Source of the DNA: a virus
IMG/VR virus record: IMGVR_UViG_3300047325_000150
Reading direction: 5' to 3' (one strand)
DNA: 64,000 nt
Part shown: positions 58,450-62,115 of the stretch, in pieces
Layout: the number at the start of each line of letters is the position of its first letter
How positions within the stretch are numbered: position 1 is the stretch's first letter
Notes under the pieces: model-generated
What the model was told of the DNA's origin: nothing
Seen by the model: only the letters and a program-made list of their open reading frames with translations
The model's database searches: none
Program-made: the position numbers and the translations under genes

Positions 58450-58565
58450 AAAGGATCTTTACAGCATATAATTTGCCTTCCAAGCCGAGAGTGCGGGTTC
58501 GATTCCCGCTTTCCCTACAATGAGGGGAAATAGTTTAATGGTAGAACACGTAAAAAGTAGATCCT
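58450..58565 (+). other. permuted/split tRNA-like locus 1 (3' half followed by its complementary 5' half)
   Basis: Order: AAAGGATCT, 34 nt, T arm GCGGG-TTCGATT-CCCGC, acceptor-3' TTTCCCT, A, CAA, tga, acceptor-5' GGGGAAA, TA, D arm GTTT-AATGGTA-GAAC, then AGATCCT. Confidence 0.45.
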
Positions 58566-58689
58566 GTTTTTTGATATGGTATAGACGTAACTCAGAGAAA
58601 GAGTTGACGCTCAGAAGCAGTGTCGATGGTTAAAGTCCTTCCATCTATGGACATGTTATGAAAAGAAAAAGTTGAGTTGCTCTCAACAT

Positions 58690-58760
58690 TGGGGAATTCG
58701 TATAATGGTATTACGGTAGCTTTGCAAGCTACTCACAGCGGTCCGATTCCGCTATTCTCC
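58690..58760 (+). tRNA. tRNA-Ala (TGC), no encoded CCA
   Basis: Acceptor GGGGAAT/ATTCTCC with the G3-U70 Ala identity pair. Anticodon arm GTAGC-TTTGCAA-GCTAC. T arm AGCGG-TCCGATT-CCGCT. Confidence 0.8.
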
Positions 58761-58998
58761 CCTAATTTTATAAAATGATCAATTCAGCATTAAACAATGA
58801 TGGATAAATTTTATTGCTCAAACGAAAACGACATTCTTTCCTATATAGTTTTGATTCATGAAATAAATTCAATGAACGACATTGTATATCACATCTATTT
58901 TGATTTCTATATTTTACTAAACCCAGGAAATCCTTGCAAGATTTTAGCTTGATCGGTTTGAGTCCGATATGTTCCATTATCTATTTTGTAGGCTTTGT

Positions 58999-59077
58999 CA
59001 GCCATTGGGGAAGTCTGGTCGTTCCCGCCTGTTTTGGAAACAGGAGATTTACGTTGGTTCAAATCCAACATGGCTGA
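58999..59077 (+). tRNA. tRNA-Pro (TGG), no encoded CCA
   Basis: C1-G72 acceptor CAGCCAT/ATGGCTG. D stem GGGA/TCCC with an 11-nt D loop. Anticodon arm CCTGT-TTTGGAA-ACAGG. T arm GTTGG-TTCAAAT-CCAAC. Confidence 0.7.
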
Positions 59078-59099
59078 CAAAACCTACGAAATAAAGTTT

Positions 59100-59194
59100 A
59101 AGGATCTGTTACAGCAAAAATGAAACTTTATTGGTTCAAATCCAATTTTCTCCGCCATTTATGGGGAAAATGCTCGTGGTAGAGCATAGATCCT
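59100..59194 (+). other. permuted/split tRNA-like locus 2
   Basis: Order: AAGGATCT, 22 nt, T arm ATTGG-TTCAAAT-CCAAT, acceptor-3' TTTCTCC, G, CCA, tttat, acceptor-5' GGGGAAA, AT, D arm GCTC-GTGGTA-GAGC, then AGATCCT. Confidence 0.45.
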
Positions 59195-59197
59195 GTT

Positions 59198-60001
59198 TTA
59201 AGTTTTGTTCGGGTGCGTCGAAGTTGATAAAGGAAGCACCGCCCTACTCTCGTGCCAATTTGGATATAACATTTCAAATTCTTTGATCTTTAGTAAAAGT
59301 TCTTCAAATGTTATTTTACATTTGGTATTCTTTTTATTGTTTTCTTCATGTCTTACAAGACGGCAATTTGCAGGGTGTGATATATAATATGAATCAACAT
59401 TATTTAAATATCCATAATTTACAGATATTAAATGATCTCTACTAACGCCGTTAATATTTTTAATTCCTTTTTTTGATCCGGGTGTAGAATACCAACCAAA
59501 TTGTTCTATCAATGATCCATCAAACCATAATGGAAATTGACTGATACTAAATTTAAATTTGCATTTTATTTCATATTGTTTTTTAGCATGAAATGCTGAT
59601 ATATGATATTTTTGATAAGTTTTAATACCAGTCTTAGCACATGTATTAAGAAATATAATTGAATATGGGCCAGTAATTAAAAATTGAGAAAAAATACCTT
59701 CATATTGACGAGGTTGACGAGGTTGAATTGTTTTTGTTTTTGTCTTTTTAGATATTTTAGGTTTAGAAATTTTAGGTTTAGCAATAGGCCCGTGTTTTCT
59801 TCCTATAATTTTATTATTGATTTTCGCAGCACAGCTATGATCACAATATTTTGGATTTAATGTTGTTTTACCACAACAAAGACAAATATTTGGTTTACGT
59901 TGTTTGTCTAAATTATAGCAAGTTTTTGAACAATAAGTTGGCTTTCTTCCAACTCGACCTGGTTTAAAATTTTTATTGCAAGTTTTACATGTAAATAACA
60001 T
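59198..60001 (-). CDS. HNH-family (homing-type) endonuclease with N-terminal Cys-rich zinc-finger region
   Basis: C-terminal RDHLISVNYG...HPANCRLVRHEENNKKN HNH core. Multiple CxxC pairs at the N-terminus. Sits inside the tRNA array. Confidence 0.6.
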   Translation of the reverse strand: MLFTCKTCNKNFKPGRVGRKPTYCSKTCYNLDKQRKPNICLCCGKTTLNPKYCDHSCAAKINNKIIGRKHGPIAKPKISKPKISKKTKTKTIQPRQPRQYEGIFSQFLITGPYSIIFLNTCAKTGIKTYQKYHISAFHAKKQYEIKCKFKFSISQFPLWFDGSLIEQFGWYSTPGSKKGIKNINGVSRDHLISVNYGYLNNVDSYYISHPANCRLVRHEENNKKNTKCKITFEELLLKIKEFEMLYPNWHESRAVLPLSTSTHPNKT

Positions 60002-60749
60002 AGTGTTAATTATACTTGATGTTAGAGTTCAATTTCAATATCAAATACTAAATTGTTTATATCGCGGTGGTGAAATTGGCCATCATACAAGTCTCCAAAA
60101 CTTGAGTTCCGAGTCGATGCTCGGCCGCGGTGCCAAGTATATTAATTGATGGTGGTACGAGTCATCTAGTGAGGACGAATTCCTGTGAAGAATTGTCGAG
60201 GTGGGGGCAGAACCCACGTATCACCCCAGAATTAAATTATAAGACGAAACTCCATATTGCGGAGATTCATGCCTGTGTGAGGACGATCTTAGGTTGGAAG
60301 ACCTAACGTAGGGTTGGAATCTCTTCCATCTTATAAAACAAGTTTAGGATGATTACAGCAATTACTCAACGTGGTAGAGAAGTGGTTATCTCGCTTGGCA
60401 GTTGACCAAGAGGCGATGGTTCAAATCCATCCTGTGTTACAAATAATATCATCCTGTTTTTAATGGCTTGTAGGTAATATTTTTGCGCTCTTGGTAGTCT
60501 GATGAATACGCACGGCCGATAACCGTGTTTAGGAGAGTTTGATCCTCTCAGGGCGCACCAATTTTTAATTCCCACCGATACTAAAATCGGCGATGTTACA
60601 ACTAATCATGGATGCTGTTGAAATTCAATGGCTAGGTATCGATGTGTAACATAAAACTATAGAGACGTCCTATCTATAGTAGTTCTTGCAGATAATGGAA
60701 TATTCTGCAACAAAAGTTAGCCATGTGTCCTGAAATGAGGACAACTTAT

Positions 60750-60827
60750 GTCGCGGTCTTCTAACTGGAATAGGAAACTTGACTTTCACTCAGGGCAATG
60801 CGAGTTCAACTCTCGTCCGCGACGCCA
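60750..60827 (+). tRNA. tRNA-Glu (TTC), CCA encoded
   Basis: Acceptor GTCGCGG/CCGCGAC. Anticodon arm CTTGA-CTTTCAC-TCAGG. T arm GCGAG-TTCAACT-CTCGT. Confidence 0.75.
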
Positions 60828-60841
60828 ATTTAAGAATTTAA

Positions 60842-60916
60842 TTGGGGATAGTTTAACGGTAAAACCGTGGCCTCTGAAGTCGCTATTCTTGGTTCGAATC
60901 CAGGTCCCCAAACCAT
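60842..60916 (+). tRNA. tRNA-Gln (CTG), CCA encoded
   Basis: U1:A72 acceptor TTGGGGA/TCCCCAA. D stem GTTT/AAAC. Anticodon arm GTGGC-CTCTGAA-GTCGC. T arm CTTGG-TTCGAAT(c)-CCAGG with an 8-nt loop or 1-nt bulge. Confidence 0.7.
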
Positions 60917-61144
60917 CAATTTGACGCAGAAAGGACAAGATAGTTCGTCGCTTGGTTCATACCCAAGAAATCTGGAGGATGCGAGCGCCTCTTCTGCTAC
61001 CAGTTTGCTACAGCGTTAGGACCCGTTGTCGCTAGATTAAGTTTTGACAACGTTTTTGGTTGTAAAGTAGAAACATACTAGTAATGTTTGATGAGGTTCG
61101 CTCTCATCCAATTGACTTTTATTAAAACAAGAATAAAATAAAGT

Positions 61145-61330
61145 ATGAATTGGGAAGATTTACAGGTTGGTGATTATGTATCATTGGAACTGTTATATAC
61201 TAAAACAATATACTATGCCAAAGTAATTAACATGACATCTGTCGATATCAAATTTAAATTTTCATCTACACCTGATTGGGTGAAGCGGAGGATGATGGAA
61301 AACTGTCTAATTGGTATGACAGGAAGGTAA
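61145..61330 (+). CDS. small hypothetical protein, paralog of 61412..61624
   Basis: Shared DL(Q/K)(V/I)GDYVS(L/I)E ... YAKVI pattern. Confidence 0.35.
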   Translation: MNWEDLQVGDYVSLELLYTKTIYYAKVINMTSVDIKFKFSSTPDWVKRRMMENCLIGMTGR

Positions 61331-61411
61331 TGGATTATAATTTTGATTTTCAAAAACATATCAAAACTATCAAATTAGACATAAACGATGATATACAATT
61401 TGAGTTAACTT

Positions 61412-61624
61412 ATGAATAAAATATCTTGGAAAGATTTGAAGATTGGTGATTATGTATCTATAGAAATTTTATCCTATAAAACATACTATGCTAAAGTAAT
61501 TGACATATCATCTAACAATATCAGAGTTAAATTTGCATCTGGTAAGGTAGTGGATTATCACCCGGTGGGGTGGGCGGGCCGCATCAAAGCTACCTTACTA
61601 TGCTACAGTAGTTCAAATACTTGA
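61412..61624 (+). CDS. small hypothetical protein, paralog of 61145..61330
   Basis: As above. Confidence 0.35.
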   Translation: MNKISWKDLKIGDYVSIEILSYKTYYAKVIDISSNNIRVKFASGKVVDYHPVGWAGRIKATLLCYSSSNT

Positions 61625-61762
61625 TTTAAAAATTATTTTTGATTTCTATTTAAATGGTAAACATGTAGGAAACGCAGATTATGCATTTGATGAAGATACT
61701 ACATTCGAAACTACATTATTAGATATGGACGATGTTCAGTTTCGATTAATGATTTCTTAATT

Positions 61763-61837
61763 GCTCCTGTCGTATAGTGGCCATTACCTGGCTTTGGTAT
61801 AGCCAGTACCACAGTTCGATTCTGTGCGGGAGCACCA
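61763..61837 (+). tRNA. tRNA-Thr (GGT), CCA encoded
   Basis: G1-C72 and C2-G71 acceptor GCTCCTG/CGGGAGC. Anticodon arm TGGCT-TTGGTAT-AGCCA. T arm CACAG-TTCGATT-CTGTG. Confidence 0.75.
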
Positions 61838-61949
61838 ATATTATGCCAGTTTGGCTGTCTGAAACTAGACGTGTAATATCACATCTTCCTTTCATACGGG
61901 AAGAGTACCCGGGGAGGTACCGGGGTCTAGTACCAAATTTTTTAAAGTT

Positions 61950-62025
61950 TGCGGGTTAGAGAAGTGGTCATCTCACCAGGTTCATATCCTGGGAATCGGC
62001 GATTCGAATTCGTCACCCGCTACCA
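61950..62025 (+). tRNA. tRNA-Met (CAT); candidate initiator
   Basis: Acceptor with a U1-U72 mismatch. A11:U24 in D stem GAGA/TCTC. Anticodon arm CCAGG-TTCATAT-CCTGG. T arm GGCGA-TTCGAAT-TCGTC. A73 and CCA. Confidence 0.65.
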
Positions 62026-62027
62026 AT

Positions 62028-62115
62028 AAAGGATCTATTCAGCATATAAATACATAAACAGAAATCGTTGGTTCGATTCCAACACAACATGCAAATGTTG
62101 TTGGTGTAGTGGTAG
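62028..62115 (+). other. permuted/split tRNA-like locus 3
   Basis: Order: AAAGGATCT, about 30 nt containing TATAAATA, T arm GTTGG-TTCGATT-CCAAC, acceptor-3' ACAACAT, G, CAA, acceptor-5' ATGTTGT, TG, D arm, then AGATCCT. Confidence 0.45.

What the first reader, a model, noticed from the sequence alone, without database searches (positions are those of the whole stretch)
58450..62115. Three candidate circularly permuted or split tRNA genes with mutually complementary acceptor halves
At 58450-58565, 59100-59194 and 62028-62115 a canonical T arm plus 3' acceptor strand (followed by N-CAA or N-CCA) sits 0-5 nt upstream of a 5' acceptor strand plus canonical D arm. Within each locus the two 7-nt acceptor strands are complementary: TTTCCCT/GGGGAAA, TTTCTCC/GGGGAAA and ACAACAT/ATGTTGT. 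The third pair is completely different from the first two, which argues for selection on pairing. No conventional 5' partner lies upstream and no T arm lies downstream. The flanking tRNAs (for example 58366-58444 and 58999-59077) leave no room for one. This gene order (3' half, short linker, 5' half) is that of permuted tRNA genes, so far described mainly in a few algae and archaea, not in phage. A phage carrying its own RNA ligase, CCA enzyme and Thg1-like end-repair enzyme (same window) would have what it needs to mature such genes. I could not place the anticodon arm unambiguously.
Basis: partly seen in the sequence, partly recalled or inferred. Interest (0 to 1): 0.9.

Follow-up and report, generated by a model that had tools for sequence, protein, structure and literature searches.

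The report
Phage Y-RNA-like tRNA mimics, not permuted tRNAs
The three "permuted tRNA" loci are real and are built from rearranged tRNA parts, but they belong to a large family of phage small RNAs that resemble bacterial Y RNAs: a tRNA-shaped module with a closed acceptor end on a conserved clamp, which in related phages lies next to a Ro60-like RNA-binding protein gene.

Summary
At 58448-58569, 59097-59198 and 62026-62139 (+ strand), a T arm and a 7-nt strand are followed by a 4-9 nt loop, a complementary 7-nt strand and a D arm.

AGAUCC-UGUU. A fourth element at 60342-60459 has the clamp too.

Pattern scans of viral contigs found about 110 distinct elements with this clamp. The stem covaries, all lie on the tRNA strand and most are in tRNA arrays. 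Inserts range from a lone anticodon-like hairpin to a full tRNA permuted at position 26/27 with a closed acceptor.

Locus 1 hits Rfam YrlA below threshold. The elements are therefore best read as YrlA-like Y RNAs with a CAGCAA motif where canonical Y RNAs have CGAA.

Maturation into working tRNAs is unlikely. Loci 2 and 3 have no anticodon arm, CCA is not conserved, and related elements differ in anticodon. No Ro60-like gene lies in the window.

The clamp also matches Dictyostelium Class I RNAs.

The parts
58448..58569 (+). Element 1, a complete Y-RNA-like unit. Parts in order: leader UUAAA; clamp 5' strand GGATCT 58453-58; motif TTTACAGCAT 58459-67; degenerate anticodon arm TTTGC-CTTCCAA-GCCGA 58472-88; V loop GAGT; T arm 58493-509; closed acceptor hairpin 58510-16/58524-30 with loop ACAATGA; D arm 58533-47; A-rich linker ACGTAAAAAGT 58548-58; clamp 3' strand AGATCC 58559-64; TGTTT.
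   Evidence: Sequence. Rfam YrlA 30.8 bits over the full model. Model R1 102 bits. Clamp-only model R2 36.8 bits. ARAGORN reads the in-silico permutation as tRNA-Gly(UCC).
59097..59198 (+). Element 2, with no anticodon arm. Parts in order: clamp GGATCT(GT) 59102-09; motif TACAGCAA 59110-17; T arm 59130-46; acceptor hairpin TTTCTCC 59147-53 / GGGGAAA 59163-69 with loop GCCATTTAT; D arm 59172-85; clamp 3' strand (AT)AGATCC 59186-93; TGTTTT.
   Evidence: Sequence. R1 62.9 bits. R2 30.4 bits. No tRNA after permutation.
62026..62139 (+). Element 3, with no anticodon arm. Parts in order: clamp GGATCT 62031-36; motif ATTCAGCAT 62037-45; T arm 62067-83; acceptor hairpin ACAACAT 62084-90 / ATGTTGT 62095-101 capped by a GCAA tetraloop; D arm 62104-18; linker GTCCGTCAAA; clamp 3' strand AGATCC 62129-34; TGTTA.
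   Evidence: Sequence. R1 86 bits. R2 30.2 bits. No tRNA after permutation.
60342..60459 (+). Element 4, a clamp variant with compensatory changes: GGATGAT 60347-53 pairs with ATCATCC 60448-54. The motif is TACAGCAA 60354-61. The insert is a normal-order tRNA-like sequence at 60368-60440, with anticodon loop CAGUUGA (A at position 33) and three G-U pairs in the acceptor.
   Evidence: (tRNA model 54.5 bits). R1 45.9 bits. R2 35.4 bits. Relatives with the same GGATGAT clamp: L004:10527, L012:1592, L109:1380.
58366..58444 (+). tRNA-Leu(CAA) with encoded CCA, ending 8 nt before the clamp stem of element 1. Processing of its 3' end probably defines the 5' end of element 1.
   Evidence: In the family, the usual gap from the upstream tRNA end to the GG of the clamp is 5-9 nt.
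61950..62025 (+). tRNA-Met(CAU) with encoded CCA, ending 5 nt before the clamp stem of element 3.

Best explanation
The three loci, plus a fourth at 60342-60459, are genes for Y-RNA-like small RNAs of the YrlA (tRNA-mimic) kind.

Proposed mechanism:
- They are co-transcribed with the phage tRNA array.
- Each is released when the upstream tRNA's 3' end is processed.
- Each folds into two modules.

Module 1 is a clamp. A 7-8 bp helix joins the 5' and 3' ends (A-GG-NNNN / NNNN-CC-U). A conserved single-stranded U-W-CAGCA-W follows the 5' strand, an A-rich stretch precedes the 3' strand, and the RNA ends in UGUU.

Module 2 is a tRNA-derived domain in which the T arm and D arm can form the tRNA elbow. 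The acceptor stem is closed by a loop, so there is no free end to charge.

I infer that the clamp with its CAGCAA motif is the binding site for a phage Ro60-like ring protein (DUF2828 plus a vWA domain). This would parallel the stem-plus-CGAA site of canonical Y RNAs. The tRNA-shaped module would then recruit or decoy tRNA-recognising proteins, or tether an exonuclease such as host PNPase, as part of the phage's tRNA repair and anti-defence toolkit.

Shown here: the anatomy, the covariation, the family, the linkage to the Ro60-fold gene in relatives, and the resemblance to YrlA.
Inferred: transcription and processing, protein binding, and function.

The domain most likely arose from tandem tRNA genes by duplication and truncation. 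That origin would explain why the acceptor loops still read N-CAA or N-CCA.
For: 1. Rfam places locus 1 on the YrlA model end to end: terminal stem, T arm, closed acceptor stem-loop, D arm. Relatives score 26-49 bits on the same model.

2. The clamp is a real structure. A filter for stem complementarity found 132 elements, against 6 in a control with the 3' strand reversed. Features the filter did not require are also conserved: A before GG in 106/113, U before WCAGCA in 102/113, an A-rich 3' side, and UU after UG. The clamp stem takes many sequences, for example GGATCT, GGATGAT, GGTTAG, GGATAC, GGCTAG and GGTCGC.

3. A model built only from about 60-nt relatives finds all four window elements through the clamp alone, at E 1e-5 to 2e-7, and nothing else with E below 0.1.

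4. All 102 elements that have a tRNA in the same locus lie on the strand of the nearest tRNA, at a median distance of 24 nt.

5. Homologues of LeBron gp53 occur in 16 loci that were fetched by DNA pattern only, and in none of the roughly 97 loci without elements. In loci that also hold elements, the gene is on the elements' strand, in most cases 30-350 nt downstream of the nearest one.

7. In LeBron, three tandem RNAs with stem + CAGCAA + AAAA + stem follow gp53. The middle one has the T arm, closed acceptor and D arm, and scores 63 bits on R1.

8. Canonical Y RNAs have a 5'-3' stem flanking a bulge with a CGAA motif that contributes to Ro60 binding (PMC12135203, PMC4201824). Here CAGCAA sits next to the 5' strand of the terminal stem.

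9. The window encodes RlaP, a CCA-adding enzyme and a Thg1-like enzyme, all tRNA-repair functions.
Against: - No gp53/DUF2828 or TROVE homologue lies in the 64-kb window. I could not read beyond the window.
- All hits to the Rfam YrlA model fall below its gathering score of 69 bits, and loci 2 and 3 do not hit it at all.
- The canonical GNCGAA/CGAA motif is absent.
- Binding of the clamp to the Ro60-like protein rests on gene neighbourhood only.
- The protein model is of moderate confidence (pLDDT 70), and Foldseek found only the vWA domain.
- Expression, RNA ends and function are untested.
- My filters selected for clamp and acceptor pairing, so the covariation counts for those two helices are partly circular.
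Confidence: 0.75

Rival explanations
1. They are genuine circularly permuted tRNA genes. The clamp would be a processing signal: it is cut off, the ends at position 26/27 are ligated by a phage RNA ligase, and RNase P plus the CCA-adding enzyme open the acceptor loop to give a working tRNA.
For: Locus 1 and at least six relatives become ARAGORN-recognisable tRNAs when permuted in silico: Gly UCC, Arg UCU, Phe GAA, Ile GAU, Arg ACG, Tyr GUA and Thr UGU. The acceptor stems are 7 bp, and N-CAA or N-CCA follows the 3' strand in the three window loci. The window encodes a CCA-adding enzyme, Thg1-like, RlaP and a possible ligase domain.
Against: Loci 2 and 3 lack an anticodon arm. There is no bulge-helix-bulge and no known endonuclease for this site. 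The clamp's sequence motif is conserved on elements whose inserts cannot be tRNAs. Acceptor loops are often 4-nt, and CCA is present in only 2 of about 31. Related elements that share the same T, D and anticodon stems carry different anticodons (GAA, ACG, AUG, UAG, GUA) and different acceptor stems. That pattern argues against a fixed tRNA identity.
Confidence: 0.05
2. They are two-piece tRNA mimics. The RNA stays on its clamp, but RNase P cuts at the 5' acceptor strand and CCA is added to the 3' strand. This was shown for Mycobacterium smegmatis YrlA. The result would be a nicked, possibly chargeable, tRNA-like RNP. This is a sub-variant of the best explanation rather than an alternative to it.
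For: M. smegmatis YrlA has a 7-bp acceptor stem. It is cut by RNase P in vitro and carries added CA in vivo, and both halves stay bound to Rsr (PMC4201824). The three window loci have 7-bp acceptor stems and intact T and D arms. The phage encodes its own CCA-adding enzyme.
Against: Locus 3 and some relatives cap the stem with a 4-nt loop, which leaves no single-stranded leader for RNase P. [quoted passage not shown] Nothing was tested here.
Confidence: 0.12
3. The clamp is a generic processing or stability cassette of phage tRNA operons, unrelated to any Ro60-like protein. It might be a nuclease-resistant end helix or an RNase recognition site. The tRNA fragments inside would be decaying pseudogenes.
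For: The elements sit in tRNA arrays, 5-9 nt after tRNA 3' ends. No Ro60-like gene lies in the window. Anticodon arms are degenerate in many members (58% paired overall). Two ordinary tandem tRNAs in Bacillus phage BC-T25 show how such units can arise by chance.
Against: The acceptor, T and D helices covary and stay 97-98% paired across divergent phages, which pseudogenes would not do. The single-stranded CAGCAA motif is nearly invariant. A Ro60-fold gene was found only in loci that hold elements, 16 against 0. In LeBron the RNAs follow gp53 with no tRNA annotated in the 5-kb stretch read.
Confidence: 0.08

Closest known systems
YrlA, the tRNA-like bacterial and phage Y RNA (Rfam RF02553; Chen et al. 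2014, PMC4201824)
   Same: The order of parts is the same: terminal 5'-3' stem, conserved single-stranded motif beside the 5' strand, optional hairpin, T arm, closed acceptor-like stem-loop, D arm, return strand. Y RNAs can also be made in one transcript with tRNAs, as shown for D. radiodurans Yrn2. Locus 1 aligns over the whole Rfam model and shares 78% identity over 64 nt with the LeBron element.
   Different: The motif is U-W-CAGCA-W, not GNCGAAN0-1G. The second helix of the Rfam model is missing. Scores are 26-49 bits against a gathering score of 69. There are several copies per genome inside tRNA arrays. The partner in relatives is a DUF2828-type Ro60-fold protein rather than a Pfam TROVE protein. 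In many members the hairpin 5' of the T arm is a canonical anticodon arm (5 bp, 7-nt loop with U33 and A37), so the whole unit is a tRNA permuted at position 26/27.
Yrl1 and Yrl2 of Thermus phage phiLo with phiRo60 (PMC12135203)
   Same: These are phage-encoded Y-like RNAs next to a phage Ro60. They have a terminal stem plus a bulge motif needed for binding, and they form a complex with host PNPase.
   Different: They use CGAA and have no tRNA-like module. phiRo60 is a recognisable TROVE protein.
Circularly permuted tRNA genes of Cyanidioschyzon merolae and some archaea (from my own knowledge: Soma et al. 2007)
   Same: The 3' acceptor half lies upstream of the 5' half with a short linker, and the acceptor strands are complementary. 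Locus 1 gives a full cloverleaf after permutation.
   Different: In those genes the termini form a bulge-helix-bulge that the splicing endonuclease cuts, the break is usually in or near the anticodon loop or another loop, and a mature tRNA results. Here the termini are a conserved clamp with a sequence motif, the break is at 26/27, two of the three loci lack an anticodon arm, and no endonuclease is known.
Dictyostelid Class I RNAs (Rfam RF01414; Kjellin et al. 2021, PMC7919456)
   Same: Both have a 6-bp terminal stem starting with G and closed by C, and the stem covaries. Both have a motif (CC)UUACAGCAA directly after the 5' strand, an A-rich 3' side and a 3' end CUGU. The roughly 60-nt relatives of the window elements are the same size and hit RF01414 over its full length at 28-29 bits.
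   Different: Class I RNAs are eukaryotic, have their own DUSE promoter, have no tRNA-like insert described, and were reported as unique to Dictyostelia. The window elements are 94-114 nt. All hits fall below the gathering score of 41.5.

Membership tests
Circularly permuted tRNA gene | The 3' half (T arm plus 3' acceptor strand) lies upstream of the 5' half (5' acceptor strand plus D arm), and the acceptor strands are complementary. | tested here: met
   Sequence, parse, covariation of the acceptor hairpin.
Circularly permuted tRNA gene | A complete cloverleaf with anticodon arm appears once the sequence is permuted. | tested here: not met
   ARAGORN on in-silico permutations: locus 1 gives tRNA-Gly(UCC), while loci 2 and 3 give nothing and have no anticodon hairpin. 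The feature is met for one of three loci only.
Circularly permuted tRNA gene | The leader and trailer form a bulge-helix-bulge motif at the junction to be spliced. | tested here: not met
   By inspection, the termini form an uninterrupted 7-8 bp helix (A-U plus 6-7 pairs). It is followed by a conserved single-stranded UWCAGCAW on one side and an A-rich run on the other. There are no 3-nt bulges spaced by 4 bp.
Circularly permuted tRNA gene | A mature tRNA or circular intermediate joins the two halves. | not testable with these tools
   This needs small-RNA sequencing or circular RT-PCR.
YrlA / Y RNA (RF02553) | A tRNA-like module (T arm, closed acceptor-like stem-loop, D arm) lies between the strands of a terminal stem. 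| tested here: met
YrlA / Y RNA (RF02553) | The sequence reaches the Rfam gathering score of 69 bits. | tested here: not met
   Locus 1 scores 30.8 bits. Loci 2 and 3 are not reported at E<=1. Relatives score 26-49 bits.
YrlA / Y RNA (RF02553) | A GNCGAAN0-1G (CGAA) Ro60-binding motif lies near the 5' end. | tested here: not met
   The same position holds U-W-CAGCA-W. The motif definitions come from PMC4201824 and PMC12135203.
YrlA / Y RNA (RF02553) | The RNA is encoded within a few kb of a Ro60 orthologue, on the same strand. | tested here: inconclusive
   There is none in the 64-kb window. Sixteen related loci and LeBron do have a Ro60-fold gene near the elements and on the same strand. The rest of this genome could not be read.
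YrlA / Y RNA (RF02553) | The RNA is bound by Ro60. | not testable with these tools
   This needs immunoprecipitation or a gel-shift assay.
Dictyostelid Class I RNA (RF01414) | A 6-bp terminal stem starts with G and is closed by C, with the motif (CC)UUACAGCAA directly 3' of the 5' strand and a 3' end CUGU. | tested here: met
   The window elements read GGAUCU + UUUACAGCAU, GUUACAGCAA or AUUCAGCAU ... AGAUCC + UGUU. The RF01414 consensus is shown. The actual RNA ends are not known.
Dictyostelid Class I RNA (RF01414) | Length is 42-65 nt, the sequence reaches the gathering score of 41.5 bits, and the gene has a DUSE promoter in a dictyostelid genome. | tested here: not met
   The window elements are 94-114 nt and do not hit RF01414. 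Relatives of about 60 nt score 28-29 bits. The context is a bacterial virus, with a sigma-70 gene and a bacterial-type AspRS.

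The most novel reading that the evidence does not exclude
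The CAGCAA clamp defines a second, unrecognised branch of Ro60/Y-RNA systems. Its protein partner would be the DUF2828+vWA family, which has a Ro60 fold but is missed by Pfam TROVE and has more than 7,900 unnamed homologues in metagenomes. Its RNAs would display interchangeable tRNA parts: anticodon hairpins with many different anticodons, elbow-plus-acceptor modules, and whole permuted tRNAs. On this reading the Class I RNAs of Dictyostelium share this clamp design and may be bound in the same way. Their function and origin are unknown, and they were thought unique to social amoebae. In phages the displayed tRNA parts would serve as decoys or recruiters for host tRNA-targeting defence enzymes or for tRNA repair.
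Probability: 0.3. Interest if true: 0.85.

Novelty: new variant of a known kind. Interest (0 to 1): 0.55.

Why it matters
Automated annotation misses these RNAs. ARAGORN calls nothing at the three loci, and the Rfam hits fall below threshold. Yet the same design recurs about 110 times in the viral contigs I sampled, often many times per phage.

If the inference holds, phage tRNA arrays encode whole sets of Y-like RNAs as well as tRNAs, and these RNAs present tRNA-shaped parts on a protein-binding clamp. That bears on how large phages cope with host attacks on tRNA.

It would also give the uncharacterised DUF2828 protein family a predicted fold (Ro60-like) and candidate RNA ligands.

Finally, it offers a testable lead on Dictyostelium Class I RNAs, whose molecular function has been open since 2004.

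For the scan itself, the lesson is that "T arm, acceptor hairpin, D arm" is the signature of a YrlA-type mimic and should not be scored as a permuted tRNA gene.

Tried and rejected
- Alternative clamp pairing: I considered CAGCAU with AUCCUG, as the Rfam alignment drew it. I rejected it because CAG and CUG never vary, whereas GGNNNN/NNNNCC covaries freely, and the two pairings cannot coexist.
- Self-cleaving ribozyme, k-turn or bulge-helix-bulge in the clamp: no matching consensus by inspection, and Rfam gave no ribozyme hit.
- Mobile element with terminal inverted repeats: rejected because the "repeats" differ between copies in one genome while staying complementary, and every element lies on the tRNA strand.
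- Near-identity search of 56-64 kb against cultured phages: no match.
- Extending the window to look for a Ro60-like gene: the look-up of encoding contigs returned only 1-5 kb Logan contigs from ERR9963758. Exact 42-mers from the window end were absent from IMG/VR and from the JGI metagenomes.
- Literature searches for phage Class I-like RNAs, for DUF2828/PF11443 function, and for a Dictyostelium link to Ro60: nothing relevant.
- The Bacillus phage BC-T25 BLAST hit turned out to be two ordinary tandem tRNAs, not an element.

Full report
**1. The observation**

A canonical T arm is followed directly by a 7-nt strand, a loop of 7, 9 or 4 nt, a fully complementary 7-nt strand, two nucleotides, and a D arm with the GG needed for the tRNA elbow. 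ARAGORN finds 17 tRNAs in the window but none at these places. The Rfam tRNA model finds none there either. Ordinary tRNAs end 8, 23 and 5 nt upstream of the clamp stem, so there is no room for missing halves.

- All three loci are bracketed by the same sequences, AAGGATCT-N(1-2)-TWCAGCA on the left and AGATCCTGTT on the right, and GGATCT pairs with AGATCC.
- Locus 1 has a complete but degenerate anticodon-arm hairpin 5' of its T arm (TTTGC-CTTCCAA-GCCGA).
- A fourth unit at 60342-60459 has the same frame with a compensatory change (GGATGAT...ATCATCC) around a normal-order tRNA-like sequence.

**2. The frame is a widespread RNA structure**

Two pattern scans of IMG/VR were filtered for stem complementarity. 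This gave 132 elements in the held DNA, against 6 in a control with the 3' strand reversed, and 113 distinct sequences.

Features the filter did not demand are conserved:
- UUUU-A before the GG (A in 106 of 113).
- U before WCAGCA (102 of 113), and A after it (84 of 113).
- AAAA(A/G) before the 3' strand.
- UU after the UG.

The stem itself takes many sequences. All 102 elements that share a locus with a tRNA lie on the strand of the nearest tRNA, at a median distance of 24 nt. The usual gap from the tRNA end to the GG is 5-9 nt.

A covariance model built only from short relatives recovers all four window elements through this clamp alone (30-37 bits, E 1e-5 to 2e-7) and nothing else with E below 0.1. 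A model of the long type scores them 102, 86, 63 and 46 bits.

**3. What the clamp carries**

The inserts are tRNA parts in several arrangements:
- (A) T arm, closed 7-bp acceptor hairpin and D arm. Many of these have a perfect anticodon arm and V loop 5' of the T arm.
- (B) Elements of about 60 nt whose insert is a short helix, one nucleotide, a 5-bp/7-nt anticodon-like hairpin (Y-U-NNN-A-A) and 3-4 nt.
- (C) Normal-order tRNA-like sequences or acceptor/T minihelices.
- (D) Other permutations.

Type A with an anticodon arm is a whole tRNA circularly permuted at the D/anticodon junction (position 26/27). When I cut the acceptor loop and joined 26 to 27 in silico, ARAGORN read locus 1 as tRNA-Gly(UCC). 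It read relatives as Arg, Phe, Ile, Arg, Tyr and Thr tRNAs. Loci 2 and 3 gave nothing.

In a 34-sequence alignment the acceptor hairpin is 97% paired, with double changes at all seven pairs. The T arm is 98% paired, the D arm 98.5% and the anticodon arm only 58%. The clamp and acceptor figures are inflated by my selection.

**4. What it resembles**

Rfam aligns locus 1 over the entire YrlA (Y RNA-like) model at 30.8 bits, below the gathering score of 69. Relatives reach 49 bits.

YrlA RNAs were described by Chen et al. 2014 (PMC4201824). They have a terminal stem with a Ro60-binding motif and a module that mimics the tRNA T arm, acceptor stem (closed by a loop) and D arm. They were reported next to Ro60 genes in 254 bacterial species and 22 phages. 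That paper also shows that the M. smegmatis YrlA, which has a 7-bp acceptor stem, is cut by RNase P and receives CCA in vivo.

**5. The protein partner**

A BLAST search with locus 1 hit cluster L mycobacteriophages just downstream of LeBron gp53, which is annotated as an RNA-binding protein. That intergenic region holds three tandem RNAs. Each is a 7-bp stem, 3 nt, CAGCAA, an insert, AAAA, the return strand and GUU. The middle one has the T arm, closed acceptor and D arm and scores 63 bits on my model.

Homologues of gp53 (22-41% identity in tblastn) turned up in 16 loci that had been fetched by DNA pattern alone. In loci that also hold elements, the gene is on the elements' strand, in most cases 30-350 nt downstream of the nearest one. 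Homologues were found in none of the roughly 97 loci without elements.

The phiLo study (PMC12135203) describes canonical Y RNAs as a 5'-3' stem flanking a bulge with a CGAA motif, in which each nucleotide contributes to binding. It also shows a phage Ro60-Y RNA-host PNPase complex. In the present family CAGCAA lies directly 3' of the 5' strand of the terminal stem, in single-stranded sequence.

**6. Most likely mechanism**

I conclude that the four window elements are Y-RNA-like tRNA mimics. They are probably transcribed with the tRNA array and released by processing of the upstream tRNA's 3' end. They are held by the clamp, which I infer is bound by a Ro60-like ring protein.

The tRNA-shaped module probably recruits or decoys tRNA-recognising factors, or tethers an exonuclease. 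The window's RlaP, CCA-adding and Thg1-like genes suggest a context of tRNA repair and counter-defence.

The anatomy, the family, the covariation and the gene linkage in relatives are shown. Binding, processing and function are inferred.

The main weakness is that no Ro60-like gene lies in this 64-kb window and I could not read the rest of the genome.

**7. Why not working permuted tRNAs**

- Two of the three loci have no anticodon arm.
- The termini form a continuous helix with a conserved sequence motif, not a bulge-helix-bulge.
- The same clamp carries inserts that cannot become tRNAs.
- Acceptor loops are often tetraloops (GCAA in locus 3; GTAT, ATTA, TCAT in relatives).
- N-CCA follows the 3' strand in only 2 of about 31 type-A elements, although 13 of 17 ordinary tRNA genes here encode CCA.
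- Related elements that share the same T, D and anticodon stems carry different anticodons (GAA, ACG, AUG, UAG, GUA) and different acceptor stems.

The N-CAA and N-CCA in the window loci are best read as relics of origin from tandem tRNA genes. Bacillus phage BC-T25 shows two ordinary adjacent tRNAs whose near-identical acceptor stems already allow such a fold. Nicking by RNase P with CCA addition, as in M. smegmatis, remains possible.

**8. An unexpected resemblance**

The roughly 60-nt relatives hit only one other Rfam family, the Class I RNAs of Dictyostelium (RF01414). The hits cover the full model at 28-29 bits against a gathering score of 41.5.

The shared features are specific (PMC7919456):
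- A covarying 6-bp terminal stem that begins with G and is closed by C.
- The motif CCUUACAGCAA directly after the 5' strand.
- An A-rich 3' side.
- A 3' end CUGU.
- A length of about 60 nt.

That paper reports Class I RNAs as unique to Dictyostelia and of unknown mechanism. I could not test whether dictyostelids have DUF2828 proteins. This remains a lead, not a finding.

**9. Verdict**

- Observation: confirmed.
- "Permuted tRNA" as topology and probable origin: supported.
- "Permuted tRNA" as gene function: not supported.
- Best classification: a new variant of a known kind. These are YrlA-type Y RNAs with a different clamp motif and a divergent Ro60-fold partner, embedded in phage tRNA arrays.

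Noticed in passing
window 57885-57995, 58578-58652, 60238-60340: Three tRNA-sized stretches share their ends (ATAAGACG or ATAGACG ... TTCCATCTTATA or TTCCATCTAT), and the ends can pair like an acceptor stem. ARAGORN calls none of them. One gets a weak Rfam tRNA hit at 25 bits (58581-58649). They may be aberrant or intron-bearing tRNAs, or another tRNA-like RNA class.
   Followed up: no
window 60368-60440: The tRNA inside the fourth clamp is called Asn-GUU, but it has A instead of U at position 33 (loop CAGUUGA), three G-U pairs in the acceptor stem, and CAA instead of CCA. Relatives with the same GGATGAT clamp (L004:10527, L012:1592, L109:1380) carry only an acceptor/T-arm minihelix ending in GCCA.
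   Followed up: partly
L042:154, L070:2347, L073:5229, L079:454, L092:7483, L099:4601, L004:9871, L109:729: One subgroup of type-A elements has the acceptor loop (G)UUGGUC. That sequence is complementary to GACCAA, the sequence that ends the tRNA just upstream (flank GACCAUUA). The closed acceptor loop might therefore pair with tRNA 3' ACCA ends, much as T-box or RNase P RNAs do.
   Followed up: no
related loci, about 39 elements of 52-70 nt (for example L070:579-638, L109:337-395, L012 8501-8561): These short clamp RNAs display a lone anticodon-like stem-loop with U33 and A37, and many different triplets (GCU, UUU, UCU, GAU, GAA, UGU, CAU and others). A 3-7 bp helix closes it, with one nucleotide and 3-4 nt at the junction, like positions 26 and 44-48 of a tRNA. 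None is present in the window.
   Followed up: partly
window 59198-60001 (- strand): A 267-aa ORF with a Cys-rich N-terminus and no Pfam hit sits inside the tRNA array, immediately after element 2. It may be a homing-endonuclease-like insertion.
   Followed up: no
window 62210-62800 (+ strand): A serine recombinase (Resolvase N-terminal domain, E 3e-16) is encoded 74 nt after element 3. tRNA-Leu(CAA) and tRNA-Thr(CGU) recur at 63195-63360 as well as at 58191-58444. Together these suggest a duplication or a mobile insertion within the array.
   Followed up: no
window 28459-29928, 31972-34618, 49678-50853, 53647-54507: The window encodes a full-length sigma-70 (regions 1.2 to 4), a bacterial-type aspartyl-tRNA synthetase followed by an RlaP nucleotidyltransferase, a CCA-adding enzyme and a Thg1-like enzyme. 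This gene content is typical of a very large phage with its own tRNA maintenance set.
   Followed up: partly
L139 (Mycobacterium phage LeBron NC_014461, 40190-40470): Three unannotated tandem clamp RNAs (stem + CAGCAA + AAAA + stem) lie directly after gp53. Pfam classifies gp53 as DUF2828 + DUF7788, not TROVE.
   Followed up: yes
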